Below, piece by piece: positions 1-59,474 of a stretch of 64,000 nucleotides of DNA. How positions within the stretch are numbered: position 1 is the stretch's first letter; each line of letters begins with the position of its first letter. Both the position numbers and the translations under genes were made by a program. Location: positions 23,009-87,008 of the forward strand of contig JAHFFR010000001.1 in the NCBI GenBank assembly GCA_023247825.1, read 5' to 3'. The notes beneath the pieces were generated by a model. It was given only the letters and a program-made list of their open reading frames with translations. It was not told where the DNA came from and searched no databases. This DNA is from Candidatus Omnitrophota bacterium. GTDB taxonomy: Bacteria; Omnitrophota; Gorgyraeia; Gygaellales; Profunditerraquicolaceae.

Positions 1-901
1 TCCGAACCGATAGAGCCCGCTGCCCCGGTGATTAGAACCTTTTTATCTTTCAGGTATTTAGCTATCTCGCACTCATCAATAGTTACAGTCTCCCTGCCTA
101 AAAGATCTTCAGGCCTTACCTCTCTTAAGCTAATCTTTAACTCTCCGCTTATGATCTTAGCCAAGCCCGGGACAATCTTCAACTTGATATTAGGCACTTT
201 GCAACAGGCGATTAAATCCCTGATTACCTCGCCTTTTGCCGAAGGAATAGCTAAAACAATCTCCTTTACATTATAATCCTTAGTAACCTTAGATATAGCG
301 AGCCTATCCCCTAAAATCCTCACCCCCTGGATAGTCCCATTCTGTTTTGCCTTATCATCATCGATAAAACCAACCACCTCTCCTAATGTGGGATTACGCC
401 TGTATTCTTTCAAAAGCAATATCCCCGCCTCTCCGGCTCCAACGATAAGCACATTAACCTGCTCATTTTTTAAAAGCGCTCCATGATACCTTTCCCTAAT
501 AATACGAGTTAAAAAACGTATTCCCCCTATAAAAAATACACAAATAATAAAATCGTTTATAAATATGAATCTGGGGACAATAGTTGCTCCAAATATAAAA
601 ATAGTGCCGGGAATAAAAACTACTGTAGCAACTATGTTAGCTTTTATTATTTGTTTAAGGTCATAAATACTTACATACCTCCAAAGGCCGTGAAATAAAC
701 CAAAATAATAAAAAACCGAAAGTTTGATAAGAACCAAAAACGGCAAAGTCTTAATAAAAACCTTAAAATAATCAACGGGCAGATTGAAATCAAAACGAAG
801 CACAAAAGACAGATAGTAAGATAAGGACACCAAAAATAAATTAATAAACAAGATAAGCGGGCGACGGTATTTTAACATAAACGCTTTATAAACTTTTTCC
901 A
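1..901 (-). CDS. CapD/PglF/WbpM-like membrane-bound NDP-sugar 4,6-dehydratase, N-terminal part (the gene runs off the window start)
   Basis: My own minus-strand translation starts at the ATG at 901-899, 8 bp after the stop of the upstream gene. It reads MEKVYKAFMLKYRRPLILFINLFLVSLSYYLSF... with about four TM helices, a VLIVGAGEAG segment, then VLITGAAGSIGS (Rossmann motif) at the window edge. The gene is missing from the ORF track because it has no in-window stop. Confidence 0.7.
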
Positions 902-908
902 TGGTTTT

Positions 909-1472
909 CTAGTGCGCTACCCCTTCTCTCTTTACGACCTTAAGCACTGTGACCATTATAATTTTTGCATCCAGAAGTAAACTCTTATTTTTTAAATAAT
1001 ACTCATCAAATTCAACCTTAACCGGGATAGGCAATTCATCCCGACCGTTAATCTGGGCCCATCCGGTAACTCCCGGGGTAAGAGTATGCACATTCTTTTT
1101 AGCCCTTAATTCTACCAAATCATCCTGGTTGAACAACGCCGGCCTGGGGCCTACAAATGTCATATCACCTGACACTATGTTAAATAATTGCGGCAGTTCG
1201 TCTAAACTGAATTTACGCAAAAAATAACCGACGGGCGTAATATACCGATCCGCGTCTTTAAAAAGATGCGTGGCAACTGCCGGGGTATCCGCACGCATCG
1301 TGCGAAATTTGCACATTTTAAATATCTTATTATTCTTTCCAACGCGGTCTGACCAGTATAACACCTGGCCGGGAGAGGTCAATTTAATAATTACCGCAAG
1401 CACAATTAACGGTAAGCTTAAGCAAACCAATAGCAAAACTGCAACAATTAAATCAAGAATACGCTTTATCAA
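909..1472 (-). CDS. Small PglC/WbaP-C-terminal-type initiating sugar phosphotransferase (polyprenyl-phosphate hexose-1-P transferase)
   Basis: 187 aa with one N-terminal TM helix. Carries the bacterial sugar transferase motifs KFRTMR and DELPQLFNIVSGDMTFVGPRP. Uses a TTG start. Confidence 0.85.
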   Translation of the reverse strand: MIKRILDLIVAVLLLVCLSLPLIVLAVIIKLTSPGQVLYWSDRVGKNNKIFKMCKFRTMRADTPAVATHLFKDADRYITPVGYFLRKFSLDELPQLFNIVSGDMTFVGPRPALFNQDDLVELRAKKNVHTLTPGVTGWAQINGRDELPIPVKVEFDEYYLKNKSLLLDAKIIMVTVLKVVKREGVAH

Positions 1473-1535
1473 ATATAACAGGCCTCCTTAAATGTACGCC
1501 TTATTATAATAATATGTCAAAAACTGATATCAAGG

Positions 1536-2987
1536 CTAATCTTTCCCTTCCATCTTGCTTAAAATTCCGGTTACGTAGCCGAAGGCCCTTTTGGGATTAT
1601 CGGGGGCTTTCTGCCCGACTATTTTAAAAGCCTCATCCACTTTAGCCGCGCCATAAATGTTAATAAACTTAGCGGTTTGCTCAATCACGCTTAAATCATA
1701 ACCTTTAAAAACCACAAAAGAATAGTCCCTGCTCTTGGTTATTAATTCTCTGCCATAACTATCCTCAAGGCGTCTTAAACCATGCTCAAATTCGCGCATA
1801 TCATATAACCCTAAGAAAACTATTGTTGGCGGCATCCTATCCTCGTACCCTTGATCAATCGAGCCATACCTGACATTAATTATATTGAAATCCCTCAACG
1901 CTTTCATTCCCGCGTAAAGCGCGTTTCTGTTTACTCCATATTTTTCGCTAATCTGGGGGCGAGAAAGCATCCATTCCGGAGGATACAGTTTAGGCCCTAT
2001 TTCGGCTAAATTAACCAAAAGACAGGCCTTAGCAGCCATATTCAATCTATTTGCCCAGCCATAATCCCAATAGGACAGAGGAATATTAAAGCTTTCCCCT
2101 TCTGCATTTTTTAACAACTTTATTTTAATTGGCTGATTGAATTGAGTATCTATTTCAACTAATTTGTATAGCCTGCTTAAACCCCGAAGCTGGCGGTTTA
2201 TCTCCTTGCGGTAAATCAGCCGATCCATATCTTTTAGCAATCCTAAACTATCAGCCAATGCTTCGTAATTTGTATCAACCGCGCCTTTGGCATTACCGTC
2301 ATAATCCCTTAAAAGTAAAAGCCAGATGTCAAAACCTCTTTCATTGTGCCTGCGGAGCATTTCTGGAACAACCCCGTTTTTTCCCATTGCCCAACAGGGA
2401 ATTTTAACACTTAAGCCCTCCTCTAATTCAGGCCCTGAGAGTTTAATCTTCGAAAAATCATCCAAAAGCCGCCTGGCGAGATCAAAAGAGTTAATTAAAA
2501 ACGATACTTCATTATTTAAGGAGAGCGAGGCATCAGACCAGTTGTGGCTGCCGGAAATAATAATCCTTTGATCAATCACAATGGCTTTAGTATGGGTGTA
2601 GGCCTGGACGCTGTCAAAACAAACGTCAATCCCCTTTTCTTTAAGAAATTTAAAGGCTTCAAAATTGGGCGCGCCGGAAGCAAGGCCGGAACCACTCCTT
2701 TGGTAGTCCAAGATAACCTTAACGTTTACACCGCGAAGCTTAGCTTTGACAAGTTCGTCGATTAGTTGAGAAACTTTTGAATTTTTATCTTCTTTGTTGA
2801 AGCTGATCAAATACATCACTATAAAGATGGATTTCTTAGCCTGAGAAATTGCCTCTTGCGCGGCGGGGAAATACTCTTGGTTGTTAAGGCGAACAACATC
2901 GGCCGGGAGACAAAATGCTTGGGTTGCAACCAGAAGGAGGAAAAGGCAAATTAGAGCTTTATGTATTTTGTTTTTTCTGATGGACAA
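1536..2987 (-). CDS. Secreted phospholipase-D-superfamily protein with a single HKD motif plus a ~280-aa C-terminal domain of unknown function
   Basis: N-terminal signal peptide (MSIRKNKIHKALICLFLLLVATQAFC). One HxK(x4)D(x6)GSxN motif (YTHTKAIVIDQRIIISGSHNWS). No second HKD motif seen. The C-terminal half has no recognisable motif. Confidence 0.6.
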   Translation of the reverse strand: MSIRKNKIHKALICLFLLLVATQAFCLPADVVRLNNQEYFPAAQEAISQAKKSIFIVMYLISFNKEDKNSKVSQLIDELVKAKLRGVNVKVILDYQRSGSGLASGAPNFEAFKFLKEKGIDVCFDSVQAYTHTKAIVIDQRIIISGSHNWSDASLSLNNEVSFLINSFDLARRLLDDFSKIKLSGPELEEGLSVKIPCWAMGKNGVVPEMLRRHNERGFDIWLLLLRDYDGNAKGAVDTNYEALADSLGLLKDMDRLIYRKEINRQLRGLSRLYKLVEIDTQFNQPIKIKLLKNAEGESFNIPLSYWDYGWANRLNMAAKACLLVNLAEIGPKLYPPEWMLSRPQISEKYGVNRNALYAGMKALRDFNIINVRYGSIDQGYEDRMPPTIVFLGLYDMREFEHGLRRLEDSYGRELITKSRDYSFVVFKGYDLSVIEQTAKFINIYGAAKVDEAFKIVGQKAPDNPKRAFGYVTGILSKMEGKD

Positions 2988-3099
2988 TTTTAATTAGTCC
3001 TCTAGCTTAATGGTTATGCTTTTTAAACCGACAGGGAATTCTTTCTTCCTTCTGCCATGTGGAACCTCCTGTTTATGAGAATCTTATATCTAAATTTAG

Positions 3100-3414
3100 T
3101 TAATACGCTTTAACCGTCTCTCTTATTCCTTCCTCCATGGTAAAAGGCGGTTTCCAGCCCAATAAATTGTGGATTTTACTGCTATCAACAAGCAGAGTCC
3201 CTGTTAATTTTTCCACCTCTTCGCCCTTGCCTGCAATCTTACACAGCACCTTTAGAATGCCAGGATGTAAAGAAAATAGAAACGCCTTCTTCTTCATTGC
3301 AGAAGCGATCATCCTTATCAAATCTGGAGTAGAAATATCCTGCCCATCACTTACTAAGAAAGTCTCCCCTGCCGCTTTTGGGTGCTGGACGCAAGTTATA
3401 ATAGCATCAACCAA
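3100..3414 (-). pseudogene. Duplicated 3' fragment of the NAD-dependent epimerase gene at 4800..5738 (orphan C-terminal 104 codons)
   Basis: The nucleotide sequence 3112..3414 is identical to 4812..5114. The translation VDAIITCVQHPKAAGETFLV... matches the C-terminus of the 312-aa epimerase except for the last three residues. Confidence 0.7.
3112..3414. repeat. Left copy of a 303-bp perfect direct repeat
   Basis: Identical to 4812..5114 by direct comparison. Identity breaks at 3111/4811 and at 3415/5115. Confidence 0.85.
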
Positions 3415-4723
3415 CTTCGGCCAAAAGCCATTTCCAGAGAGGCACTATTTTCACCGTATGACCGTTCAACTTTTCTTCGCCTTCCGTTGCGTCCGTGACG
3501 ATAGTCGCATCTGTAATGTTCAAATCTTTCATGCCTTTATGAAGGCTGCGCAACTCTCGATTCCTTGTCTTTTCATCCTGCATATTCCAGCAGACTTGAA
3601 TTAAGCTCGTTACTTTCAAGCCTTCCTTGATAACGAAATCAACCTCGCTGTGATGGATATCTTTCCAATAAAACAGCTCAATATTCGGATTTAAATTTTG
3701 TTTCCGTTTGAGCGCCACAAAAACAACATTCTCGGCGAGTCTCCCATAATTCTCCGAAAATCTAAAACCAACAGCATTGCATAAACCGGTATCAATCGCG
3801 TAAATTTTGCGCGGACTTTTTTCCTGTTCTTTAACCTTGAATGAAAATCGTTTTAATGAAAAAACTAGATACGCCTGCTCAAGATATCCGGTATAGCTCT
3901 TGACGCTGGTTATCGACATATCAAGTGAACGTTCTATTGATTTAAATGTAGAAGGCGCGGAGATATTAGAAAGGTAATACTTCACAATGGTTCTTAAGTC
4001 CTGAGCTTTCTTTATCTTGAATCTTCGTAAAAGATCTTTAGTTATTACATCCTCAAAATAGCTTAATAAAATCTCTTTTTTCTGCTCTGACAGAACGACT
4101 TCGGGGAATGAACCATATTCAATGTATTTTCGTAAAGCTCCTTTTATTTCCGATTCCCTTCCGATTAACCCCAGCTTGCCGGTCAACGAGATATTATTAA
4201 AAGAAAGAAATTCCCCGAACGATAACGGAAAGACCTCCATATCAAGATGCCTGCCGGTAAGCAATGTTCCAAGTTCCCGGCTTAAGAGGAGCGCGTTTGA
4301 ACCAGATATAATTATTTTTGCCTTTGAAAGCTCATGCATCATCCTAACCCATTTCTCGAAGCCTTCTATTTCCTGTATTTCATCAATGAATAAGATCGGA
4401 GTGTTTTGGGCAGATATGTATTCGCGGTAAGTCTCAAAAATCTTGCTTAAAAGCGAAACTCCCGACTCAGTAAACCGCGGATCCTCAAAATTGACATGCA
4501 TTATATCCTTTGAATTATACCCACTATTGATCAGCCTCTTTATCATTTGACGTATGATAAATGATTTGCCTGCGCGCCTCGGGCCCATTATAGTAATAAC
4601 TTGGTTAGACGAAAAAAGGGATTCAAGTTTCGAAATATAGATAGGCCTTGAAACGCCTATTTTCTGGTCTCGATTCCAAAAATTCCAATCATCAAGTATC
4701 TGAATTATCTCATTTTTTGTCAT
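3407..4723 (-). CDS. AAA+ ATPase of the AAA_14/DUF4143 (COG1373-like) family, the only gene between the two repeat copies
   Basis: Walker A (IMGPRRAGKSF) and Walker B (ILFIDEIQEI) motifs. The C-terminal region is typical of DUF4143. The last 8 bp including the stop codon lie inside the left repeat copy. Confidence 0.8.
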   Translation of the reverse strand: MTKNEIIQILDDWNFWNRDQKIGVSRPIYISKLESLFSSNQVITIMGPRRAGKSFIIRQMIKRLINSGYNSKDIMHVNFEDPRFTESGVSLLSKIFETYREYISAQNTPILFIDEIQEIEGFEKWVRMMHELSKAKIIISGSNALLLSRELGTLLTGRHLDMEVFPLSFGEFLSFNNISLTGKLGLIGRESEIKGALRKYIEYGSFPEVVLSEQKKEILLSYFEDVITKDLLRRFKIKKAQDLRTIVKYYLSNISAPSTFKSIERSLDMSITSVKSYTGYLEQAYLVFSLKRFSFKVKEQEKSPRKIYAIDTGLCNAVGFRFSENYGRLAENVVFVALKRKQNLNPNIELFYWKDIHHSEVDFVIKEGLKVTSLIQVCWNMQDEKTRNRELRSLHKGMKDLNITDATIVTDATEGEEKLNGHTVKIVPLWKWLLAEVG

Positions 4724-4799
4724 TTATCACCTCACTATGTAACAAGATTTCTAAATCCTATTATTTACATAGTAAATATACACCAAAATTACCGTTTTG

Positions 4800-5738
4800 T
4801 CAATCATATACAACCGTCTCTCTTATTCCTTCCTCCATGGTAAAAGGCGGTTTCCAGCCCAATAAATTGTGGATTTTACTGCTATCAACAAGCAGAGTCC
4901 CTGTTAATTTTTCCACCTCTTCGCCCTTGCCTGCAATCTTACACAGCACCTTTAGAATGCCAGGATGTAAAGAAAATAGAAACGCCTTCTTCTTCATTGC
5001 AGAAGCGATCATCCTTATCAAATCTGGAGTAGAAATATCCTGCCCATCACTTACTAAGAAAGTCTCCCCTGCCGCTTTTGGGTGCTGGACGCAAGTTATA
5101 ATAGCATCAACCAAATTACCAAGATAAATAAAACTGCGCCGATTATTAATATCCTTGAACGGCAAAGGCAAGCCAGAACCAACAAGTTTAATCAAACTCT
5201 TAAAATTAGCCTTTACTCCCGGTCCATAAACCAAAGGCAGCCGTAAAATTACTGTCTGAAGGCCGGTTTCGGCAGCTATTCGAGACAATACCCGCTCTGC
5301 CTCCATCTTGCTGATACCATAAACATCCTGAGGTTCAGGAAGATCATCTTCGGTATACGACCAAGAAGCTCCTTCGCCATTTATTTTGACCGAACTGATA
5401 AAAATGAACCTTTTGACTCCTGCTTTTGCGGCCATTTGCGCCAATCGTTCGCTCCCCATAATATTAACTTTCCGGAAAGCATTAAGAGGATTAGACGCTG
5501 AATCATTCATAACATGGACTCGTGCCGCCAAATGAATAACCGTATCAACACCAACTAATGCCTCTTGCCAATCAGTTTGAGGGCCGATATCACCAATTTC
5601 AACTGTTTTGCAATTAATAGGCAATCTAATATCTATATTATGCCGCACCGCTGCGCGCAGATTAAAACCATAATCACTCAAGGTTTCACATAATGCCCTT
5701 CCAATAAAACCTGTCGCACCGGTAATTAATATCTTCAT
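4800..5738 (-). CDS. NAD-dependent epimerase/dehydratase (extended SDR), likely NDP-sugar 4-epimerase/reductase
   Basis: Starts MKILITGATGFIGRAL. Carries a YGISK (YxxxK) catalytic motif. 312 aa. Confidence 0.8.
   Translation of the reverse strand: MKILITGATGFIGRALCETLSDYGFNLRAAVRHNIDIRLPINCKTVEIGDIGPQTDWQEALVGVDTVIHLAARVHVMNDSASNPLNAFRKVNIMGSERLAQMAAKAGVKRFIFISSVKINGEGASWSYTEDDLPEPQDVYGISKMEAERVLSRIAAETGLQTVILRLPLVYGPGVKANFKSLIKLVGSGLPLPFKDINNRRSFIYLGNLVDAIITCVQHPKAAGETFLVSDGQDISTPDLIRMIASAMKKKAFLFSLHPGILKVLCKIAGKGEEVEKLTGTLLVDSSKIHNLLGWKPPFTMEEGIRETVVYD
4812..5114. repeat. Right copy of the 303-bp perfect direct repeat
   Basis: Identical to 3112..3414. Lies inside the 3' end of the epimerase CDS at 4800..5738. 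Confidence 0.85.
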
Positions 5739-5805
5739 AATCTGTATTTAACGTCCAGCGTTTTGACAATTAGGTTTTTCAGCGGATTGGTTGGCGGCTT
5801 GGCCG

Positions 5806-6987
5806 TCAGCGCAACCATGTATATATATCAGAGGCATTATTCGGTGGCTGTTTGATAACCTTATCCCAGAGTTCCCTATCCAATACCGCCCACATTTTTT
5901 TAAATTCTTCGTTTAACATATCCAATGTTTCCGGAATCACGGTAATCTGTTGTACTGGGCTCGAGAAAAGCGCCCGGGCAAAATTGCCATTTTGAATAAA
6001 GCCCATTGTAAGCAATGGTTCGGATAAAGAATTAAGGAGAAGAAATGGTTTGGAACCGAAAAGCGCCATGCTGCCGGGCCCGGAAGCCGCTCCCATATGT
6101 ATGGCCGCGCCATTGATCAGGGCCAGATCCTGTTCAACGCCCGCGCGAAAGTCTTTTGTCATGAGCACATTTGAGCAGCGCTTGAAACGTTCGTCCATTT
6201 CGGATTCCGCTCCGATGATGATGAATTTAACCGGATATTGCTCTTTGCATACGGTAAAGAATTCAAGCCAGACATCATAATTAGAATTACGGCCTGGGTT
6301 AACTTTATTCTTTCGCAATTGAACTGTTACCGGAAGAAAAGGAAAGACATGTTTGTGCATAAAATCAGAGGCCCAAGAAAGCATATTGGGCCTTGGATTC
6401 AAAGCGGGGAGCCGGTTATTTTTTTGGTAATACTCAGCAAGGAGTTCGTGATAAATACGATAGATCAGGTACTCCCGGGAAAAATACGTTCCTGCCGACG
6501 GCCAAACCAGATATCGGTCCATATTGTCCGCCACAAAACGTTCCAGATGGTCATGGCTATTAAACAGGAATAGAGAGCCAAGGCGCGAGTTCATCTGCGC
6601 TACGGGAAGAATCAAAGCCAGGTGAAAAAGGTAATTATCTTCGGTGATACCGGACAGGACAGGATCAGGAGCGGCGGGGCGAGCAGGGTTGTAGACCAAC
6701 GCAAAATCGACGGCCGCACAATTATTTTTCTCGAGCAAAACAAGGCCGGCTTCCTGAAAAGTAAGAATGTCGCCGACACTATAGGGCTGGCTTGTCAGGT
6801 CATAAATCATCAGGACACGCCGATCTTCTTTCCGGACGACACAAAAAATACTATGCGGTAAGGCAAAAAACCAGGCAAATATGCCTATAATTCTGTATAT
6901 GGGACTTCTAACCGCGCGAAATACGGCCGCACACGGAGGAGAAGTATTTCTTAATCTTTTAGCGATATTCCACAAACGCCGCCACAT
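5806..6987 (-). CDS. Hypothetical protein, possibly a GT9 (heptosyltransferase-like) glycosyltransferase
   Basis: Weak resemblance to GT9 motifs (VLMIYDLTSQPYSVGDILT; HMGAASGPGSMALFG compared with D(T/S)GPMHLAAA..LFG). No firm family call. Confidence 0.4.
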   Translation of the reverse strand: MWRRLWNIAKRLRNTSPPCAAVFRAVRSPIYRIIGIFAWFFALPHSIFCVVRKEDRRVLMIYDLTSQPYSVGDILTFQEAGLVLLEKNNCAAVDFALVYNPARPAAPDPVLSGITEDNYLFHLALILPVAQMNSRLGSLFLFNSHDHLERFVADNMDRYLVWPSAGTYFSREYLIYRIYHELLAEYYQKNNRLPALNPRPNMLSWASDFMHKHVFPFLPVTVQLRKNKVNPGRNSNYDVWLEFFTVCKEQYPVKFIIIGAESEMDERFKRCSNVLMTKDFRAGVEQDLALINGAAIHMGAASGPGSMALFGSKPFLLLNSLSEPLLTMGFIQNGNFARALFSSPVQQITVIPETLDMLNEEFKKMWAVLDRELWDKVIKQPPNNASDIYTWLR

Positions 6988-7048
6988 AAATCCCCCTCAT
7001 TATTTTAAAATATTATAATATATTCTACCATCACCTTTATAATACTAT
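6988..7048 (-). promoter_or_regulatory. AT-rich intergenic leader with a strong SD (GAGGGGG) 7 bp upstream of the ATG of the 5806..6987 gene; possible internal promoter (TAGAAT / TATAAT-like hexamers)
   Basis: The reverse complement reads ...ggtgatggTAGAATatatTATAATattttaaaataatGAGGGGGatttATG. This is one of the few >50-bp gaps in the operon. Confidence 0.25.
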
Positions 7049-8419
7049 CTACCCTTTTAAATTACTGTGCCAGCTTATTCTGCAGTATTGCCAAGTTACA
7101 AATACCAGAGGAATTATTATAATGTTTACAATCAAATATCCCATGGCGACCCCGGCAGCTGAATAATATTTTCCCAGAATAATTGTTAACCCTCCGATAA
7201 GCGCTCCTGCCATAACCGATAAGAATACGAGTGGTTCTTTTTTATGCGCACGCAAATATCCTGACGCGGGAAGCGATACGCTTACAATAATCTGCGCCAA
7301 TAAAAAAATAGCTACCGTTAATGGTGGTAGAAACCTTACGGCAAATTTACTATGAAAATTATATAGCAAAAAAATACCAAACCAAATCGATAAACCTAAA
7401 ATTACAGAAACAATTAAAACAACCCTTGTCATCTTAAAGAATAGCTTATCCAGTGTTTCGTAATCTTTCTTAGCGATAAGCATTCCGAATCTAGGAATTT
7501 TTGGCGCAAGCCAGGCACTCGATATCCAAATAACAATCCCTACCAAATTCCATGTCATTCCCATTTGCCCTGCGACGACTGACCCGTGGAATTTGAATAA
7601 TACCGGCGTAAATAACGAAAAAACAAAATATCCACCAACCCAAGAGACAGCTATCCTCCATTGCATTGGGAAGATATCCTTATACCATTTAATCCGCGGC
7701 CCTTTCGCATTAAGAAAAAACAGGCTTCTGAAAAAATACCAATATTTGTATTTTATGAAGAATAGGCCGCACGCCAGAAACATTATACTTGAAACAGAAA
7801 GCGCAAAAAGCCCTGCCCCGGATAAGATTGCAATCCAAATAGATAAGTTTACCAGTAATCCTTGCCAAAACTTAAAAAAATATAATTCTGCAAGTTGATT
7901 GCACCCTTCCAGCAGCGACCATATCGGGGCCAGGCAAAGATTTATACCAGTTAAAAAACATAAGCTAAACCATGGAAATACCCAACTGATACCGGATTTT
8001 TGTGATTCTAAAAAGAATACATACCCGCCTATTCCTAAAAAAAGAATTAGGAAGGCCGCGCCGACTGCATACCATCTTAAAGACAACCGTGCTAAACTAC
8101 CCAGCCTTGACAGCGCTTCTTCACTGCCCGCTATAAAACCTTTTTCTGTAATACTAAGGCGCGACCATTCATGGCTTGCAAATTGAATGATTACAACTCC
8201 AAGGCCTAGCTCCACAAAAACCTGTAGCGCAAGAAGCGTGCTGAAGGTATAGTAATACCCCTGTAATTCAGGCGAAAATTTGATAATGATAAGTATAATC
8301 GTAATGGGGCCTGTGATGATCAACCATGCTTTCGATAAGATACTAAAAAATGCGGGCCGATCAACTTCAATCTTCCGCAAATTATTCTTAATAAAATTTC
8401 TCGCCTCGGATATTTTCAT
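7049..8419 (-). CDS. Polytopic membrane protein, Wzx-like (MOP/polysaccharide biosynthesis flippase family) candidate
   Basis: 456 aa with about 12 predicted TM helices and a Wzx-like N-terminal region (IIIKFSPELQGYYYTFSTLLALQVFVELGLG). Confidence 0.55.
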   Translation of the reverse strand: MKISEARNFIKNNLRKIEVDRPAFFSILSKAWLIITGPITIILIIIKFSPELQGYYYTFSTLLALQVFVELGLGVVIIQFASHEWSRLSITEKGFIAGSEEALSRLGSLARLSLRWYAVGAAFLILFLGIGGYVFFLESQKSGISWVFPWFSLCFLTGINLCLAPIWSLLEGCNQLAELYFFKFWQGLLVNLSIWIAILSGAGLFALSVSSIMFLACGLFFIKYKYWYFFRSLFFLNAKGPRIKWYKDIFPMQWRIAVSWVGGYFVFSLFTPVLFKFHGSVVAGQMGMTWNLVGIVIWISSAWLAPKIPRFGMLIAKKDYETLDKLFFKMTRVVLIVSVILGLSIWFGIFLLYNFHSKFAVRFLPPLTVAIFLLAQIIVSVSLPASGYLRAHKKEPLVFLSVMAGALIGGLTIILGKYYSAAGVAMGYLIVNIIIIPLVFVTWQYCRISWHSNLKG

Positions 8420-9477
8420 TTCTTAAACCTTTGACTTGGGCCCATATTTATTAATATGCGGCCCCCTGTTCCCTTCTTTAGCTTATTCAGCGCCTTATTG
8501 ATATTTGACAAACTACACATATCGCCGATAAGCTCGCCGATTTTTAATTTTCCGGATAAATATAAATCCGCATACATCGGTATATCAATATCGGGGTTTG
8601 TTCCGCCACCCCAAGCGCCTACGATCCCTTTACCTTTTATCAAATTAAAGGGGTCAATCGATATTTTATCTCCCTGCGGCAAATTACCCGTTATTATACA
8701 AAGCCCGCCTTTATCGCGGACTGACTGAAAAGCGGCTTCCATCATCGCCCTACTTCCCGAACATTCAACCGCATAATCAACGCCCTTACCTGCCGTAATT
8801 TCCATTATACAAGATAAAACGCCGCCTTTCTTAGCGTTTATTATATCTGTAGCACCAAGTTGCCGGGCCTTTTCAAGTTTATACTCAAACTTATCAACCC
8901 CGATAATACTGGGAACACCTATCATCCGCGCAGCCAATAAAGCGCTCAACCCAATACCACCCAATCCAAAAATAGCTATACTGTTGGCATATCCTTTTTT
9001 TATTGCTTTAATCACAATACCTGCGCCGGTTGGAATAGCGCATCCGAACAATGCGGCTTCCTTTAAAGGTATGCCGTCAGGAATTCTGACTACGCGATTT
9101 TCAGAAACTACCGCTTTCGTCAAAAATGTTGAGATAGCTCCTGAATTAACAATGCCACCATTGCCTTTTAAGTATTGGCAGGATGGGACATCTATTCCGG
9201 AGCCTTTTAACCATGTTAATACCACAAGATCGCCAACTTTAACTTTTTTTACACTTTCGCCAATCGCCGCTACTACACCCGACCCCTCATGCCCAAGAGT
9301 ATGCGGCAAAAACCTATCCTCCCCTTTCAATCCACCGATTTCATTCAACTGTGAATGACAAATGCCGCTATAAGCTATTTTTACCAATACCTGGCCATGT
9401 TTCAGCTCTGGAACTGTCAGCTCCTCGATGCGTAAAGGATTATTTATTTTCTCTAATACAGCCGCTAAAGTTTTCAT
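8416..9477 (-). CDS. Zinc-dependent medium-chain alcohol dehydrogenase/reductase
   Basis: GHEGSGVV zinc-ligand motif, a GLGGIGLSA Rossmann motif and a GICHSQ motif. 353 aa. Confidence 0.8.
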   Translation of the reverse strand: MKTLAAVLEKINNPLRIEELTVPELKHGQVLVKIAYSGICHSQLNEIGGLKGEDRFLPHTLGHEGSGVVAAIGESVKKVKVGDLVVLTWLKGSGIDVPSCQYLKGNGGIVNSGAISTFLTKAVVSENRVVRIPDGIPLKEAALFGCAIPTGAGIVIKAIKKGYANSIAIFGLGGIGLSALLAARMIGVPSIIGVDKFEYKLEKARQLGATDIINAKKGGVLSCIMEITAGKGVDYAVECSGSRAMMEAAFQSVRDKGGLCIITGNLPQGDKISIDPFNLIKGKGIVGAWGGGTNPDIDIPMYADLYLSGKLKIGELIGDMCSLSNINKALNKLKKGTGGRILINMGPSQRFKK

Positions 9478-9492
9478 TTCATTTACCTATCT

Positions 9493-10164
9493 CTAATCCG
9501 CGATAAACCACCAATAATCCCCGCTATAGCCGACTTCAGCGAACAGCTTCTTCCATTCGTCAACATGCATCATTGTTTCAGCAGTAAGTACCCACTTAAA
9601 GAGGTTAACGCGCTCCTGCTCGTTGCGCCAGGCGTCAATGGTAATATAGCTATTCCCGCGGCAGACACGCTGAATTTCCCGCAGGGATATTTTAAGACGC
9701 TCAAGAGAAAGATTGTGGATCGAATTAATAGAAATCACTAAATCAAAAGATTTATCGGGATAAGGCAATTTTTCAGCGCTGGCGATTTTCAGAAACGGTT
9801 TTACGGAAGCCATGGCGTTCTCGATCGCGTATTCACTGACGTCTATGCCGGCAACGGTTGCCTGCGGCATCAACTCCTTAAAATCATGAAGCATAAAACC
9901 TTTAGCGCAGCCGATATCAAGAATCGCGGCATTATCCGGCAGATGATAAAAATTCTTTATCAGCTTTACGACCGTCCTCCAGCGGCCATCATATTTATAA
10001 CCACCATAGCCACATCTCCTATCACCATCGAAGAAATCCCGACTGAATTGCTTGGCTAACTTAATAATTTCCTGTGTCTTTTCACGTGCACGCTTATCAT
10101 AATCACGCGCGGTTTTTGGATAGCTATCCAATAAATTTATTTCACTCATAATTTTAATTTTCAA
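9493..10164 (-). CDS. Class I SAM-dependent methyltransferase
   Basis: Motif I is ILDIGCAKGFML. 223 aa. Confidence 0.7.
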   Translation of the reverse strand: MKIKIMSEINLLDSYPKTARDYDKRAREKTQEIIKLAKQFSRDFFDGDRRCGYGGYKYDGRWRTVVKLIKNFYHLPDNAAILDIGCAKGFMLHDFKELMPQATVAGIDVSEYAIENAMASVKPFLKIASAEKLPYPDKSFDLVISINSIHNLSLERLKISLREIQRVCRGNSYITIDAWRNEQERVNLFKWVLTAETMMHVDEWKKLFAEVGYSGDYWWFIAD

Positions 10165-10172
10165 TTAAATCT

Positions 10173-11093
10173 CTAAAATAATTCAGACTTTACCTTTTGT
10201 ACAATATTATCCACGGTAAACCCAAGAAGTTCACAAATATCTGCATAAGAGCCATAATCCCTGACAAAGATATCAGGTATAGCAATAAATGAATATTTTA
10301 TACCAGCCAGATCTTTAGTAATTCTGAGGACTTCATCGCCCATTCCTCCATACATACTATGCTCTTCTATAACAATAACTTTCTTGGTATTTTTAACACT
10401 TTCCAGTATCAATTTCTGATCAAAAGGTTTAATGGTGTGCATATAAATTATCTCTGCATCAAAACCAAACTTCTTCAATAACTCAGAGGCATCCAACGCA
10501 GTTTTTAACTGAGGGCCAGTGACTACAATAGTTAGATCGTTACCCTTCGTAACCTTTATCCCCTTTCCTGATATAAGCTGCTCTTTGCTAAAAATAAAAT
10601 CATGGGATAACCTAGGGATACGAAAATAGGATACCTTTCCATTGTTATACGTTTGTTTAAAAAGGGTAATAAGTTCTATTGGGGAAGCGGGAAAAAATAT
10701 CTGAGTATCGGGTAGCGGTTTTAACAAAGCGAAATCAACGTAACAATGATGAGTACATCCAAGAGTTGAATAATCAAAAGCGCTGCCGACAGTAATAATA
10801 TTAACTCCCAGCTCTTGATAACAAAAATCTAGCTTTATCTGCTCATACGACCTTTCTACAATAAACGGAGCGATGGTATGTACAACTGGATAAAAACCCA
10901 ACATCGATAAACCAGCTGCCATATTTACAATGGTTGGCTCGCAAATACCAATATTATAATATCTACCCTGGCATGCCTTAGCAAAATCCAGAAGCCTAAA
11001 ATGGCTTATGTCACCAACCATAACCACAAGGTTTTCATCCTTCTTACCTACCTCAAGGAGCGTATCAGCAAACTCCTCACGCATATCCTTCAT
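10173..11093 (-). CDS. Transketolase, C-terminal (pyrimidine-binding) subunit of a split transketolase
   Basis: Transketolase pyrimidine-binding/C-terminal domain pattern. Its start overlaps the stop of the N-terminal subunit gene by 4 bp. Confidence 0.85.
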   Translation of the reverse strand: MKDMREEFADTLLEVGKKDENLVVMVGDISHFRLLDFAKACQGRYYNIGICEPTIVNMAAGLSMLGFYPVVHTIAPFIVERSYEQIKLDFCYQELGVNIITVGSAFDYSTLGCTHHCYVDFALLKPLPDTQIFFPASPIELITLFKQTYNNGKVSYFRIPRLSHDFIFSKEQLISGKGIKVTKGNDLTIVVTGPQLKTALDASELLKKFGFDAEIIYMHTIKPFDQKLILESVKNTKKVIVIEEHSMYGGMGDEVLRITKDLAGIKYSFIAIPDIFVRDYGSYADICELLGFTVDNIVQKVKSELF

Positions 11094-11878
11094 AAGGCAA
11101 GCTCCTTATAGATTAATTCTAATTCTTCTTTATTGGGAACTTTATAATGCCACGGCCCATGCGTTTCCATAAACTTAACCCCTTTACCTTTTACAGTATC
11201 AGCGATTATAACTTTGGGCTTTGCATTAAAGTCAAACTTTGTTTCTTTGAATACTCTCTCAATCTCTTCCTCTTTATGACCATTAATTCTATGCACTTCC
11301 CAACCAAAAGAGCTCCATTTATCAGAAAGATTTGAAACAGGCAAGACCTGAGTCGTGGAACCATTGTTATCTATTATACAACAAAAGTTACCCAATTTTA
11401 AATTTGCTGCTACTAAAGCTGTTTCCCAGACGGTTCCTTCATTGCATTCTCCATCTCCAACAAGCGCTATGACTTTATTTCTTTTATTCCTTATCTTAAG
11501 ACCCAAAGCAATACCCATTGCTGTAACAATGCCATGCCCTAAGGAACCAGTACACGCCTCAACCCCCGGAACTTTTGTCCTATCAGGGTGCCCTCCCAAA
11601 ATTGCGCCTTTTTTGCTCTTATTATCTAAATCATCCTGAAGAATAAAGCCATGTTTTTCCAAAACTACATAAAGAGCTGCGCAACCGTGCCCTTTACTTA
11701 AAATGAAATAATCTCTCCCATCCCAAAGTGGATTTTTAGGGTTAAACTTAATGACCTTATCATATAAGTATGCGATTATATCAATTATTGAGAAAGCGCT
11801 TGGAATATGCCCCTCTCCAGCCTTATAAACCATATCTACTATCTTTTTGCGCAATTCTTTATTCATCATGTTATTCAT
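11090..11878 (-). CDS. Transketolase, N-terminal (ThDP-binding) subunit
   Basis: GHPDRTKVPGVEACTGSLGHG and GDGECNEG ThDP-binding motifs. Confidence 0.85.
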   Translation of the reverse strand: MNNMMNKELRKKIVDMVYKAGEGHIPSAFSIIDIIAYLYDKVIKFNPKNPLWDGRDYFILSKGHGCAALYVVLEKHGFILQDDLDNKSKKGAILGGHPDRTKVPGVEACTGSLGHGIVTAMGIALGLKIRNKRNKVIALVGDGECNEGTVWETALVAANLKLGNFCCIIDNNGSTTQVLPVSNLSDKWSSFGWEVHRINGHKEEEIERVFKETKFDFNAKPKVIIADTVKGKGVKFMETHGPWHYKVPNKEELELIYKELAL

Positions 11879-11901
11879 TTAATCTTCTTAAATTTTTAAT
11901 A

Positions 11902-12678
11902 CTACTGTCCAAAATATCCTCTTCCTTGCCCGCCATCAACAGGAATAATACTTCCAGTATTAAAAGAAGCTAATTCTGAACAAAGAAAAACCACAAAATT
12001 ACCAATTTCCTCTGGGCTTCCGAAACGGCCTATTCTTTGCCTCTCAGCTAAAAATCTCTTTACGTGTTTGGGATTACTTTTAGAAACTTGATCCCAATAG
12101 CCACCTTTTGTAAAAACAGCTCCCGGTAAAACAGCAGAAACAACTACACCATCAGGAGCAACTACTCCCCCAAAGCTCCTAGTATAAGCGGTCAAAGCGG
12201 CTTTCATGGCGCAATAAGTTACCGGGCCATGATTTTCCATAGCTGAGATAGAAGAGATATGAATTACCCTACCCCATTTATTTTTCTGAAGATAAGGAAC
12301 AATTAGGCTATTAATCTCAACTGCTACTTCAAAATTAAAACGATATACTCTTCTCCATTGCTGTATAGAACAAAACGGATCTTTAATGTCAAGGGTTCCT
12401 CCTAAATTATGCACAATGATCTCAGGAATCCCAAAACTTTTTCTTAATTTATTAAAAAGCAACCGCGGGGATTTTTCTTTCTCAAGATCAAGAACTACAG
12501 CAATATGGTTCTTGCTCCCGCCAGGCATTTTAGCGATTAAACTATTGAGATCGGCCTTAGACCTGGAAACAACAGCAATACGCGCGCCTTCATTTGCTAA
12601 ACCAAGCGCAATAACGTTTCCAATCCCCCTACCACTACCTGTTACTAAAGCTAACTTGCCCTTAATTCCAAGCTCCAT
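11902..12678 (-). CDS. Classical short-chain dehydrogenase/reductase (SDR)
   Basis: TGSGRGIGNVIA glycine-rich motif. 258 aa. Confidence 0.8.
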   Translation of the reverse strand: MELGIKGKLALVTGSGRGIGNVIALGLANEGARIAVVSRSKADLNSLIAKMPGGSKNHIAVVLDLEKEKSPRLLFNKLRKSFGIPEIIVHNLGGTLDIKDPFCSIQQWRRVYRFNFEVAVEINSLIVPYLQKNKWGRVIHISSISAMENHGPVTYCAMKAALTAYTRSFGGVVAPDGVVVSAVLPGAVFTKGGYWDQVSKSNPKHVKRFLAERQRIGRFGSPEEIGNFVVFLCSELASFNTGSIIPVDGGQGRGYFGQ

Positions 12679-12694
12679 CCCGCACCTCTTTTCA

Positions 12695-13897
12695 TTAAAT
12701 GTTGTGAAAAGGATAGATAATATTCTTCGGCCTAATAGATAAAAGTTTAGTCATAATTGGTTTCACATTGTCCACTGCAGTTATAAAAACATTTGAATTA
12801 CTTAGCACATCATTTTTGATTTTACCGGAATAACAAATTTGCACGGGCAAATTAACGTAATACTTTCCGTCTTTTTTTACATCATCATCCAATAGCGCTT
12901 TTAAAAAAGTAAAATCTGTTCCCAAATGGTAACCTAAAATCGGCAGCATCATTGCCGCCCCATATCCGTAAATGCCAGAATTGGATAGTTTCTTTAATAA
13001 CTGCATTACATTGTCCATCTGTTTATGAAAAATAGATACTCGTTCTCTAATTTCATTTTTCTGGTAATTAAATTTAAATATTCTTTTTTTGGACCTGCTC
13101 TTTTTAAAAGCCACTACCATCGCCCCCCAGTTATGATAATTTTTAGTCCAGGAAATTATTTCTGCTCCACTCATACTCAAAATACACTCAAAAGAAGCAA
13201 GACTAAAATACTGCAGATGCTCATGAAAAACCTGATCAAAACGATATCTTTCAATTAAAGTTTCAAAACAAGGTGTTTCAAAAATAAAAATGGTGTCCTC
13301 ATCTGCAAACTCCATTAATTTTCTAATAACAATTTCTGGTTCAAAGATGTGTTCGATTGCATGCCTGCAGAATACAATATCCGGCTTAGAAATTATATCT
13401 TTCTCAAATTCGACATCTTCAATCGTCTTACCTAAAACCCTTGTTCCATCAGATAAATTACCGGTGTTTTTTTGATTCCAGATAGGATCTATGCCTAAAC
13501 GCTTTCTTATAAAAGACGCTGCCTCATTCAACAAATACAGATCATTACATCCAACATCGATGCCATAATTCAAAATCTTTTTACCAATTAATGATTTTAA
13601 AAAATTCAATAAGAAGTTTGTTCCTTCTTTTGCGCTAGCACTTGCCGAGGTCCTAAAAGTATATTTATCAGAATCATACAATATAACCGGATTAACCTGA
13701 TGCAATAACTGGCCCTGTCCGCATTTCGGACACCATAATAATTTCTGATTAACCCCTTGAACAGGCAAACTTTGTTTTTTATTTGAAAAAAAACCTGTTA
13801 AAGGCAGATTTGGTAAATCTAAGATACTAACAAGATTACCATAACCGCAAATACTACAACCTTCCCTTGTTTTAACTATAATATTATTAAATTTCAT
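12695..13897 (-). CDS. C-methyltransferase-family protein (Zn-ribbon plus class I MTase plus C-MTase C-terminal domain), a TylC3-like NDP-sugar C-methyltransferase candidate
   Basis: N-terminal CxxC...CxxC motif (CSICGYGN...CPKCGQG) and motif I (IDVGCNDLYLL). A paralogue of 27383..28633. Confidence 0.6.
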   Translation of the reverse strand: MKFNNIIVKTREGCSICGYGNLVSILDLPNLPLTGFFSNKKQSLPVQGVNQKLLWCPKCGQGQLLHQVNPVILYDSDKYTFRTSASASAKEGTNFLLNFLKSLIGKKILNYGIDVGCNDLYLLNEAASFIRKRLGIDPIWNQKNTGNLSDGTRVLGKTIEDVEFEKDIISKPDIVFCRHAIEHIFEPEIVIRKLMEFADEDTIFIFETPCFETLIERYRFDQVFHEHLQYFSLASFECILSMSGAEIISWTKNYHNWGAMVVAFKKSRSKKRIFKFNYQKNEIRERVSIFHKQMDNVMQLLKKLSNSGIYGYGAAMMLPILGYHLGTDFTFLKALLDDDVKKDGKYYVNLPVQICYSGKIKNDVLSNSNVFITAVDNVKPIMTKLLSIRPKNIIYPFHNI

Positions 13898-13928
13898 AAA
13901 TGTTGTTTAGGTTTATTTAATTTCTAAA

Positions 13929-14126
13929 TTAAAATGGCCCCTTAAACCAGCCTCCCGGCACATCACTACCGTTACTAGAATCAGTGACGGCTTCCACGGG
14001 GACCCGAAACATAGCCGCGGCTATCCGAGTGATATCCACGGCTCGGGGATAATAGTGTTTCGCCAGCTCCCAGCTTGCTGGCGTCGGTAGATCCGGAAAC
14101 GCGACTCGTCGTGGAGCGCATTTCAA
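13929..14126 (-). pseudogene. Remnant encoding only the C-terminal ~65 aa of an E1-beta (ThDP enzyme) subunit
   Basis: VAFPDLPTPASWELAKHYYPRAVDI aligns with the C-terminus of the intact E1-beta at 15724..16779 (ITFPDVPTPTSPALAKYYYPRAVDI). The fragment is visibly more GC-rich than its surroundings. Confidence 0.6.
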
Positions 14127-14233
14127 GCTGTCGAGGCATTTTTCCGCTGCCAGCGCTTTCCTATATCGCTACCTATACCAAGAATACCAAGAATAAAAAC
14201 ATTTTTTGTGACTGTCTTCTTTCCGACCATATT

Positions 14234-16779: not shown

Positions 16780-16790
16780 TTTATCGGTTA

Positions 16791-47646: not shown

Positions 47647-47647
47647 G

Positions 47648-58263: not shown

Positions 58264-58408
58264 CTAAACTCCGCTTTGCACCAACACAAGTAACATTACT
58301 TTGCTAGAAAATATTGTTAACTTTTTACCCTAACTCCTGCTATTCTACCGCTAAACCAATTACGCCTGCGCCTATAATCAAAATGTCAATTTTTCCATTA
58401 GTTTAGAT

Positions 58409-58439
58409 CGGGGACAGTCCCAAAAAACGGGACAGTCCC
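58409..58439. repeat. REP-like element copy A: GGGGACAGTCCC-AAAAAAC-GGGACAGTCCCC (two 11-13-bp hairpins)
   Basis: Each unit GGGAC-A-GTCCC is a self-complementary hairpin. Copy B is near-identical, down to the 3' flank TCTATT. Confidence 0.8.
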
Positions 58440-58441
58440 CT

Positions 58442-58946: not shown

Positions 58947-58982
58947 GATGAAATTCAGGATTCCCCCCCCAGAATAAGTATA

Positions 58983-59459: not shown

Positions 59460-59474
59460 GGAAAACTTGATGTC

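What the first reader, a model, noticed from the sequence alone, without database searches (positions are those of the whole stretch)
3112..5114. 303-bp perfect direct repeat bracketing an inserted DUF4143 AAA+ ATPase gene inside the 3' end of an epimerase gene
3112-3414 and 4812-5114 are identical over 303 bp. The right copy is the true 3' end of the epimerase CDS. The left copy is an orphan fragment that differs only in the last three codons. The 1397 bp between the copies carries one gene, a COG1373-type AAA+ ATPase. Its stop codon lies inside the left repeat. Perfect identity implies a very recent event. A 303-bp duplication is far longer than transposon target-site duplications. This suggests a recombination or cassette-capture mechanism, or an assembly artefact. 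No integrase or transposase is present.
Basis: seen in the sequence. Interest (0 to 1): 0.65.

Follow-up and report, generated by a model that had tools for sequence, protein, structure and literature searches.

The report
Defence gene inserted with 303-bp duplication
A self-contained candidate anti-phage gene (an ATPase-nuclease carrying its own promoter) has inserted into the end of a sugar-epimerase gene of an uncultured bacterium and copied 303 bases of the target, so the host gene stays whole; this recombinase-free way of moving was described before only for restriction-modification genes.

Summary
Window 3112-3414 and 4812-5114 are identical over 303 bp, in direct orientation. They bracket 1397 bp that encode one AAA_14+DUF4143 ATPase.

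It is not an assembly chimera. Three independent MEGAHIT contigs stop exactly 141 nt (k) inside the repeat, so all four repeat junctions exist in short-read graphs.

The 1397 bp form a discrete horizontally mobile unit: a sigma-70-like promoter, a palindromic leader and the ORF. DNA 70-88% identical to it occurs in at least 12 unrelated contexts across several phyla. In each case the homology ends at the two edges of the window's insert.

The protein matches PADLOC candidate defence family PDC-S01 over its full length.

Orthologous epimerases show that the orphan copy keeps the ancestral 3' end (ETVKAY*). The intact gene's last codons and its stop codon come from the insert.

The structure fits "insertion with long target duplication", described for restriction-modification and Type IV nuclease genes (Furuta et al. 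2010). Its mechanism is unknown.

Other DUF4143 genes sit in two more of six orthologous epimerase-transferase backbones, flanked by short direct repeats.

Verdict: real and recent, a new member of a known but poorly understood kind of gene mobility. The mechanism is inferred, not shown.

The parts
4812..5114 (-). Right copy of the 303-bp repeat R. It forms codons ~209-309 of the intact epimerase ORF.
   Evidence: Exact identity to 3112-3414. Inside CDS 4800-5738.
3112..3414 (-). Left copy of R. It is an orphan 5'-truncated epimerase fragment that still carries the ancestral 3' end.
   Evidence: Orthologue alignments continue through it to 3100-3110.
3100..3111 (-). Ancestral last three codons plus stop of the epimerase (AAA GCG TAT TAA = KAY*).
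   Evidence: Homologues end ETVK(G/Y)... Homology to L052 extends to 3100.
4800..4811 (-). New tail of the intact epimerase (GTA TAT GAT TGA = VYD*), supplied by the insert. The TGA overlaps the -35 hexamer.
   Evidence: Orthologue homology stops at 4812/4809.
4800..5738 (-). Intact SDR sugar epimerase/dehydratase-family gene (312 aa) of the glycan-synthesis backbone.
   Evidence: Pfam Epimerase 2e-40. Orthologues are followed by Bac_transf and a CapD-like gene.
3415..4811 (-). Inserted mobile unit E (1397 bp): promoter, palindromic leader and ATPase ORF.
   Evidence: Nucleotide homology to about 20 loci from at least 12 unrelated contexts spans window 4813/4803 to 3415/3422 and nothing else of the window.
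4775..4803 (-). Sigma-70-like promoter of the unit (TTGACA, 17 nt, TATATT). The -35 starts 8 nt from the insert's edge.
   Evidence: 11 of 12 consensus matches, the best site in 2900-5900. Conserved in 15 loci.
4732..4775 (-). Conserved palindrome in the 5' leader (core ACAGGATTTnnAAATyCTGT); operator-like.
   Evidence: Hairpin z-score -4.6. Conserved in sequence without compensatory changes across 15 loci.
3407..4723 (-). AAA_14 + DUF4143 (PD-(D/E)xK-superfamily) ATPase, 438 aa; PADLOC PDC-S01. The last two codons and the stop are read from repeat R.
   Evidence: Pfam 1e-33 and 1.5e-24. PADLOC PDC-S01 1.5e-115, full length. Walker A/B and D355/E360/D362/K366 are invariant. Relatives end ..LLAEEG plus context-specific tails.
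1536..2987 (-). Signal-peptide PLDc_2 protein (483 aa). It is accessory to the backbone, and the same family recurs as a neighbour of E-family ATPases.
   Evidence: Pfam PLDc_2. Absent from the empty backbones L054/L056/L059. Homologues are adjacent to the ATPase in 7 contexts.
909..1472 (-). Bac_transf initiating sugar transferase. In empty orthologous loci it directly follows or overlaps the epimerase.

Best explanation
A discrete, horizontally mobile single-gene unit inserted recently into the 3' part of an epimerase gene in a large glycan-biosynthesis locus of an uncultured, probably Omnitrophota-like bacterium. The unit consists of its own promoter, a palindromic leader and the ORF of a PDC-S01-type AAA+ ATPase fused to a PD-(D/E)xK-superfamily domain.

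The insertion duplicated 303 bp of the target. The upstream copy, joined to four insert-derived codons, keeps a full-length epimerase. The downstream copy is a dead 5'-truncated fragment that retains the ancestral end. This is an 'insertion with long target duplication', as described for restriction-modification and Type IV nuclease genes.

Inferred mechanism (not shown): no site-specific recombinase is involved. The unit, as a linear DNA, was joined by illegitimate (end-joining or template-switch) reactions to two chromosome ends that overlapped by 303 bp. Such ends could come from nicks on opposite strands 303 nt apart, or from two sister chromosomes or fork arms broken at different positions. 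Fill-in or continued replication then produced the duplication.

The direct repeats make the insertion reversible by homologous recombination, which would restore the original gene.

Shown: the anatomy, the reality of the junctions, the discreteness and cross-phylum mobility of the unit, the ancestral polarity and the family assignment.
Inferred: how the ends were made and joined, and that the gene acts in defence.
For: - Exact 303-bp direct repeat with sharp edges.
- All four junctions were recovered independently. MEGAHIT contigs L050 = window 1-3252, L001 = 3274-4952 and L051 = 4974-16987 each end k = 141 nt into R.
- The unit is discrete and mobile. The ATPase is 84-92% identical in protein to genes in Nitrospirae, Auribacterota and Omnitrophota MAGs, and 76% in Elusimicrobia. 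The host epimerase's best relative is 79%.
- DNA homology with about 20 loci always ends at window ~4803-4813 and ~3415-3422, and no other window DNA is shared.
- Pairs still 94-97% identical inside the unit lose all similarity at the same edges: L021 vs L006, and L004 vs L022.
- The unit starts 8 nt before TTGACA-17-TATATT. It ends within the last codons, and relatives take context-specific tails and stops from flanking DNA.
- Polarity: the orphan copy carries the ancestral end.
- Family: PADLOC PDC-S01, E = 1.5e-115. DUF4143 is listed in the PD-(D/E)XK superfamily (PMC3424549).
- Precedent: RM and mcrA-type genes inserted with 45-423-bp target duplications and no mobility genes, with repeats often spanning a stop codon (PMC2853133).
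- Recurrence: among six orthologous epimerase/Bac_transf/CapD backbones, three are empty (L054, L056, L059). Two others carry unrelated DUF4143 genes flanked by direct repeats of target sequence: about 10-12 bp in L058 and about 6-9 bp in L052.
- A 3.3-kb two-ATPase unit in L034 is flanked by a perfect 22-bp repeat that is single-copy in L035.
- No integrase, transposase, attC-like site, terminal inverted repeat or tRNA was found.
Against: - No same-species empty site was found. The hypothetical ETVKAY epimerase is absent from the 15-billion-protein collection, so the ancestral state is inferred from orthologues about 72-79% identical.
- No read-level or coverage data are available. The graph loop could be traversed 0, 1 or several times, so a mixture with an excised 1.7-kb circle or a tandem array is not excluded.
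- Other E-family loci with long flanks show no long flanking repeat, so the 303-bp duplication is a single event.
- The short repeats in L052, L058 and L034 could be cores of site-specific recombination rather than target duplications.
- Neither junction shows microhomology to the family consensus, and the donor is unknown (best DNA match 88%). End joining, template switching and Campbell integration therefore cannot be told apart.
- In the more diverged loci the 'discrete edges' could partly reflect edges of selective constraint.
- A defence function for PDC-S01 has not been validated (PMC12988326).
Confidence: 0.6

Rival explanations
1. Campbell-type (insertion-duplication) integration. A 1.7-kb circular molecule made of E plus a 303-bp internal fragment of the same species' epimerase gene recombined with the chromosome by RecA-dependent single crossover within R. 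This gives exactly R-E-R.
For: The product is what laboratory insertion-duplication mutagenesis yields (established knowledge). The repeats are perfectly identical. The assembly graph is a simple loop, R + 1397 bp = 1700 bp, compatible with a circle.
Against: It needs two prior illegitimate joints, E to both ends of an internal fragment of the host's own gene, plus a homologous crossover. One duplicative event is more parsimonious. E carries no replication function. The related insertions in L058 and L052 have repeats of only ~6-12 bp, too short for RecA-mediated Campbell integration.
Confidence: 0.2
2. Self-catalysed insertion. The unit's own AAA+/PD-(D/E)xK protein makes strand breaks at variable spacing in the target and promotes its gene's insertion, so PDC-S01 genes would be autonomous minimal mobile elements.
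For: The unit is only a promoter plus ORF with sharp edges in many contexts. DUF4143 genes recur in the same backbone with flanking direct repeats of 6-12, 22 and 303 bp. Furuta et al. proposed that DNA breakage by the encoded nuclease underlies long target duplication.
Against: No conserved terminal repeats or end motifs were found. No biochemical data exist. The ORF's C-terminal tail is not conserved. The same anatomy can arise from host repair acting on any incoming DNA. Nuclease-dependent excision of the donor copy is unexplained.
Confidence: 0.1
3. Assembly artefact. The duplication was created by the assembler from strain variants, and no real molecule has two copies of R.
For: The repeat (303 bp) is longer than the usual k-mers, so a short-read assembler must guess the path. 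MEGAHIT assemblies of related samples did not resolve it. No coverage data are available.
Against: Junctions E->R (3415/3414) and R->E (4812/4811) lie on one unbranched unitig that ends in R at both sides. Every copy of E in that sample is therefore preceded and followed by at least 141 nt of R. The only alternative traversal is an R+E circle or array, which itself must derive from the integrated form. The ATPase ORF is closed by a stop inside R, and the epimerase ORF by a stop inside E.
Confidence: 0.05
4. Site-specific cassette capture by an integron, a Xer/dif module or a tyrosine-recombinase island acting in trans.
For: E is a promoter-bearing single-gene module found in many contexts. Some relatives lie next to tyrosine-integrase genes, as in L006 and L025. 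The short flanking repeats in L058, L052 and L034 could be recombination cores.
Against: Site-specific recombination does not duplicate 303 bp of coding sequence. There is no attC-like element at either end. The conserved palindrome lies inside the leader, not at the edge. No integrase lies within about 12 kb upstream or 5.7 kb downstream. The two ancestral break sites share no motif.
Confidence: 0.03

Closest known systems
Insertion with long target duplication of restriction-modification and Type IV nuclease genes (Nobusato et al. 2000, as cited in Furuta, Abe & Kobayashi 2010, NAR 38:2428, PMC2853133)
   Same: A nuclease-type gene unit lies in a chromosome without any integrase or transposase. 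It is flanked by long direct repeats (45-423 bp in the paper, 303 bp here) that are single-copy at the empty site. The repeat spans the end of a host gene, so the gene survives. Single-gene cases exist (mcrA). The mechanism is unknown.
   Different: The cargo is not an R-M system: there is no methyltransferase and no recognised restriction enzyme. It is a PDC-S01 AAA+/DUF4143 gene. No same-species empty site is available here. The host is an uncultured lineage whose competence is unknown.
PDC-S01 (PADLOC phage-defence candidate; AAA_14 + DUF4143, COG1373)
   Same: Full-length HMM match at 1.5e-115, the same two-domain architecture and intact ATPase motifs.
   Different: PDC-S01 is described as an abundant single-gene candidate with frequent transfer (PMC12988326). 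In the papers held here nothing was found on how the gene moves, on promoter-to-stop unit boundaries or on target duplications.
Laboratory insertion-duplication (Campbell-type) mutagenesis with a non-replicating circle carrying an internal gene fragment (my own knowledge)
   Same: The product is identical: fragment - insert - fragment in direct orientation, with one copy truncated at 5' and the other at 3'.
   Different: It needs a circular intermediate containing host DNA and RecA. There is no evidence here for such a circle or for how it would form naturally.
IS/transposon insertion with target-site duplication
   Same: A discrete unit flanked by a direct duplication of target DNA. The related DUF4143 units in L058 and L052 have transposon-sized repeats (~6-12 bp).
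   Different: There is no transposase and no terminal inverted repeats. The duplication length is not fixed, and at 303 bp it is far outside the known range (<30 bp).
Integron gene cassettes and Acinetobacter-type dif modules
   Same: Single-gene modules that move without carrying their own recombinase.
   Different: No attC or dif-like sites lie at the edges. The unit carries its own promoter at its 5' edge. The 303-bp duplication is incompatible with site-specific exchange.

Membership tests
PDC-S01 / COG1373 AAA_14-DUF4143 ATPase | N-terminal AAA_14 P-loop domain with Walker A and B motifs | tested here: met
   PF13173 at 1.1e-33, residues 40-173. GPRRAGKS and the D114/E115 motif are invariant or nearly invariant in 36 homologues. 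Foldseek places the N-terminal half with DnaA/Cdc6/RFC/SSO1545 AAA+ folds, on a model with pLDDT 66.
PDC-S01 / COG1373 AAA_14-DUF4143 ATPase | C-terminal DUF4143 (PD-(D/E)xK-superfamily) domain | tested here: met
   PF13635 at 1.5e-24, residues 229-379. D355, E360, D362 and K366 are invariant. Superfamily assignment from PMC3424549. Catalytic roles were not tested.
PDC-S01 / COG1373 AAA_14-DUF4143 ATPase | Full-length match to the PADLOC PDC-S01 models | tested here: met
   PDLC04787 at E = 1.5e-115, residues 23-435 on profile 10-408 of 412, plus six further PDC-S01 models.
PDC-S01 / COG1373 AAA_14-DUF4143 ATPase | Protects against phage | not testable with these tools
Insertion with long target duplication (Furuta et al. 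2010 criteria) | Direct repeats longer than 30 bp flank the insert | tested here: met
   303 of 303 bp identical.
Insertion with long target duplication (Furuta et al. 2010 criteria) | The repeat aligns with a single-copy sequence at an empty site in a compared genome | tested here: inconclusive
   Orthologous loci L054, L056, L059 and L061 have one epimerase 3' end, and both window copies align to it. These are only 72-79% identical relatives.
Insertion with long target duplication (Furuta et al. 2010 criteria) | Insert shorter than 20 kb with no mobility genes in or beside it | tested here: met
   The insert is 1397 bp with one gene. The neighbours are glycan-synthesis genes and a PLD gene.
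Insertion with long target duplication (Furuta et al. 2010 criteria) | Cargo is a restriction-modification system (R and M genes) | tested here: not met
   There is no methyltransferase. The cargo is a PDC-S01 ATPase with a PD-(D/E)xK-superfamily domain. The window therefore shares the mode of insertion, not the RM cargo.
IS element / DNA transposon | Transposase gene and terminal inverted repeats, with a short target duplication of fixed length | tested here: not met
   No inverted repeats in 1-10000. No transposase domain. The duplication is 303 bp.
Integron gene cassette | attC site at the cassette end, and an array or IntI nearby | tested here: not met
   Homology between loci ends at the ORF's last codons with no shared 3' element. 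The only conserved palindrome is internal to the 5' leader. No integrase is nearby.
Integrase-mediated island in a tRNA gene | Tyrosine or serine recombinase gene, with att repeats derived from a tRNA 3' end | tested here: not met
   No tRNA in the window. The repeat is coding sequence of an epimerase.

The most novel reading that the evidence does not exclude
PDC-S01 (AAA_14-DUF4143) genes are themselves minimal autonomous mobile elements. Each is a promoter-plus-ORF unit whose ATPase-nuclease product breaks target DNA at variable spacing and drives insertion of its own gene. This would leave target duplications from a few bp to hundreds of bp, with a preference for certain neighbourhoods such as glycan-locus initiating-transferase junctions and next to exported PLD-family genes. 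It would be a transposase-free class of selfish element. It would also explain why this is among the most abundant 'defence' families.
Probability: 0.1. Interest if true: 0.85.

Novelty: new member of a known kind. Interest (0 to 1): 0.55.

Why it matters
How defence genes that lie outside phages, plasmids, transposons or integrons get into chromosomes is poorly understood. 'Insertion with long target duplication' has stayed a comparative-genomics curiosity, limited to restriction-modification genes, with no mechanism.

This locus is a fresh, cleanly bounded example for a different family. That family is extremely abundant and functionally unvalidated.
- The duplication is still 100% identical.
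- Both junctions are exact.
- The mobile unit is defined to the nucleotide.
- The same unit is traceable across phyla.

This gives a concrete 1.4-kb construct to test for mobility and for defence. It also suggests a simple genome-wide screen: PDC-S01 genes compared against empty sites, with the length distribution of flanking repeats as the readout.

The locus also shows how an insertion inside a gene can be neutral. The duplication preserves the host ORF, and homologous recombination can reverse the insertion.

Tried and rejected
- Integron cassette: there is no attC. Homology ends at the ORF's last codons, and the conserved palindrome is internal and shows no covariation.
- Transposon: no terminal inverted repeats and no transposase.
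- A second copy of E in the same genome as donor for template switching: the L001 unitig is unbranched across E, so no differently flanked copy existed in that sample.
- Carriage on known plasmids, phages or IMG/VR viral contigs: no DNA match. Plasmid relatives are below 60% protein identity.
- Empty-site search: the exact hypothetical ancestral protein is absent, and the ancestral junction was not found in viral contigs.
- Long flanking repeats as a general property of the E family: not found in L004, L006, L008, L010, L020-22, L021 or L045.
- Short target duplications at old E-family insertions that lack comparators: nothing above chance.
- RNA structure in the leader: conserved in sequence only, with no compensatory pairs.
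- Structure: no PDB sequence relative. The AlphaFold model was mediocre, and the fold search returned only generic AAA+ hits.
- Composition: GC of the insert (38.3%) is not distinctive against the window (40.4%).
Full report
**Observation**

Comparing each base with the one 1700 nt further on gives a single uninterrupted identical run, 3112-3414 = 4812-5114 (303 bp). Mismatches lie directly outside both ends. No other perfect long repeat exists in the 64-kb window.

All 58 ORFs of at least 180 aa lie on the minus strand. Those annotated belong to a very large glycan-biosynthesis cluster. Read on that strand, the local order is:
- an SDR epimerase gene, 5738->4800 (312 aa, ...ETVVYD*);
- 76 bp of spacer;
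- an AAA_14+DUF4143 ATPase gene, 4723->3407 (438 aa), whose TGA lies 6-8 nt inside the left repeat;
- a 5'-truncated copy of the epimerase 3' end, 3414->3100 (...ETVKAY*);
- a signal-peptide PLDc_2 gene, 2987->1536;
- the initiating sugar transferase (Bac_transf), 1472->909.

**Is it an artefact?**

Exact-protein look-ups returned three MEGAHIT (k = 141) contigs from ENA assemblies:
- L050 = window 1-3252;
- L001 = window 3274-4952, which has 1679 bp = 1397 + 2 x 141;
- L051 = window 4974-16987.

Each contig is 100% identical to the window and each stops exactly 141 nt inside R. R is therefore a genuine two-in/two-out node. The two novel junctions (R->insert at 4812/4811 and insert->R at 3415/3414) lie on one unbranched unitig. 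Every copy of the insert in that sample was thus preceded and followed by R.

What cannot be decided without reads is how often the loop is traversed: an empty chromosome plus a circle, one copy, or an array. Each of these presupposes the integrated form.

**Which copy is ancestral?**

Nearly all of 70 inspected homologues end ...ETVK(G/Y/D).... Nucleotide alignments to orthologous loci (L052, L054, L059, L061) run through the orphan copy to 3100-3110. In the intact copy they stop at 4812.

The orphan copy therefore keeps the original end. The intact gene now finishes with GTA TAT GAT TGA, read from the insert. Its stop lies inside the insert's -35 hexamer.

**What is the insert?**

The protein has AAA_14 and DUF4143 domains. 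It matches PADLOC candidate defence family PDC-S01 over its whole length at 1.5e-115. DUF4143/COG1373 is catalogued in the PD-(D/E)XK superfamily (PMC3424549). PDC-S01 is reported as the fourth most common 'defence' family in prokaryotes, but it is unvalidated (PMC12988326). Walker motifs and D355/E360/D362/K366 are invariant in 36 homologues.

Its relatives are 84-92% identical in protein in MAGs labelled Nitrospirae, Auribacterota and Omnitrophota. They are 76% identical in an Elusimicrobia MAG. The host epimerase has no relative above 79%.

With 60 fetched loci, DNA homology to the window always spans ~4803-4813 to ~3415-3422. That is precisely the 1397 bp between the repeats, and nothing else of the window is shared. 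At least 12 flanking contexts are unrelated to one another.

Pairs that are still 94-97% identical inside the unit lose similarity at the same edges: L021 vs L006, and L004 vs L022. These edges are therefore not merely limits of selective constraint.

The unit's anatomy is:
- it begins 8 nt before a TTGACA-17-TATATT promoter (11/12);
- it continues through a palindromic leader conserved in sequence without covariation, hence operator-like;
- it ends in the last codons, where relatives share ...PLWKWLLAEEG and then take different tails and stops from whatever DNA follows.

The unit was not found on known plasmids, phages or IMG/VR contigs.

**Comparative context**

In orthologous loci the backbone is epimerase -> Bac_transf -> CapD-like -> Wzy. 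In L054, L056 and L059 the first two genes overlap or abut. Two other orthologous backbones carry different DUF4143 ATPases:
- L052: a 387-aa ATPase, 19% identical to the window's, sits between the epimerase and Bac_transf.
- L058: a 381-aa ATPase sits between Bac_transf and the CapD-like gene.

Against the empty L056, the flanks of the L058 insert overlap by 12 nt, and AAATCGTAT occurs on both sides. The flanks of the L052 insert overlap by about 6-9 nt.

A 3.3-kb unit with two DUF4143 genes in L034 is bounded by a perfect 22-bp repeat that is single-copy in L035.

These short repeats could be target duplications or recombination cores; I cannot tell which. Other E-family loci with long flanks have no long repeat.

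**Mechanism**

The anatomy matches 'insertion with long target duplication'. Furuta, Abe and Kobayashi documented it for Type I-IV restriction systems, including a lone mcrA gene. Their repeats were 45-423 bp, no mobility genes were present, and the repeats often spanned a stop codon. The mechanism was left open, and DNA breakage by the nuclease was suggested (PMC2853133).

Neither junction here shows microhomology to the family consensus. Four bases (GTAT, 4811-4808) are of unknown origin. The break sites share no motif.

My best reading is a one-step illegitimate joining of a linear unit to two chromosome ends that overlapped by 303 bp. Those ends could come from staggered nicks or from differently broken sister or fork arms.

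A Campbell crossover with an R+E circle gives the same product, but it needs two earlier illegitimate joints. Self-catalysis by the encoded ATPase-nuclease is possible but unsupported. Site-specific capture does not explain a 303-bp duplication of coding DNA.

**Limits**

- There is no same-species empty site, no reads and no donor.
- The defence role is untested.
- Perfect identity of the copies may reflect recency or gene conversion.
- The host taxon rests only on the names of homologues' source records.

**Verdict**

The feature is real, well bounded and recent. It is a new cargo family for a known but mechanistically unsolved mode of gene insertion.

Noticed in passing
window 1536-2987; L006 318-1841, L023 5-1300, L021 2672-3817, L042 2-635, L030 1906-3390, L041 1390-2538: A signal-peptide PLDc_2 protein with a ~300-aa C-terminal extension lies directly next to the E-family ATPase on the same strand in 7 independent contexts. 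It is upstream in four and downstream in three. The PLD proteins are only 27-58% identical to one another, whereas the ATPases are 59-94% identical. The ATPase unit therefore seems to have landed repeatedly beside pre-existing PLD genes. Unexplained.
   Followed up: partly
L052 5959-7198; L058 6538-7729 (empty comparators L054, L056, L059): Two other, mutually distant DUF4143 ATPase genes are inserted in the same conserved epimerase/Bac_transf/CapD-like core of orthologous glycan loci. They are flanked by direct repeats of about 6-9 bp and 10-12 bp of target sequence. Counting the window, three of six sampled backbones are occupied. L045 and L003 carry the E unit just upstream of a Glycos_transf_4 gene, and L026 carries it after a CapD-like gene.
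   Followed up: partly
L034 3834-3855 / 7162-7183; L035 ~7314-7335; L035 3791-3838 / 5365-5412: In Patescibacteria-type contigs a 3.3-kb segment with two tandem DUF4143 ATPase genes is bounded by a perfect 22-bp direct repeat that is single-copy in the related contig L035. In L035 a 48-bp repeat (94%) brackets the first ATPase gene.
   Followed up: partly
window 58398-59890: The only gap in the gene array holds gene fragments: a Wzz N-terminal fragment (58442-58660), a short HTH-like ORF, an N-terminally truncated AbiEii toxin (58983-59459) and a truncated ORF6N protein (59507-59890). The segment holding the Wzz, HTH-like and AbiEii fragments is bracketed by a 44-nt direct repeat (58408-58451 / 59473-59516, 91%) containing GGGACAGTCCC palindromes; the ORF6N fragment lies just beyond the second copy. 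It looks like a second, decayed accessory insertion.
   Followed up: partly
window 4732-4775 and the same position in 14 other loci: The leader of the ATPase unit carries a conserved palindrome (ACAGGATTTnnAAATyCTGT) between the -10 box and the ribosome-binding site. It is conserved in sequence, not by compensatory change, so it resembles a protein-binding operator more than an RNA hairpin.
   Followed up: yes
L022 4001-5320; L038 vs L004 6193-6714: In the Nitrospirae population the same ATPase gene is frameshifted in one contig, and another contig lacks about 520 bp of it. One variant also has 588 bp more than L004 exactly at the unit's left edge. The gene therefore decays, and its flank is rearranged, within a population.
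   Followed up: partly
L002 160-262, L006 1923-2009, L023 1364-1457, part of L027: A ~95-100-bp module with the hairpin GTCGCAA...TTGCGAC directly precedes the unit in several otherwise unrelated contexts. A longer version of the mobile unit may exist.
   Followed up: no
window 46312-49036 and 35620-37364: There are two pairs of tandem paralogous genes. The Glyco_trans_1_2 genes are 70-73% identical in DNA. Two ORFs without a Pfam match are 87% identical over 251 nt.
   Followed up: no
plasmid collection: Distant relatives of the ATPase (<60% identity) occur on 208 plasmid records, 157 of them from Acinetobacter. That genus is known (my own knowledge) for Xer/dif-bounded single-gene modules. 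Whether those copies sit in dif modules was not examined. The left junction in L058 (GAAATCGTATA-TGTTAT-TTATGCTTGAC) is vaguely dif-like by eye.
   Followed up: no
L030 96-449 and 555-1883; L035 3989-6817: Different DUF4143 ATPase genes occur in tandem with each other. A small calcineurin-like phosphoesterase gene follows the E-family gene in the L002 group, L019 and L041.
   Followed up: no
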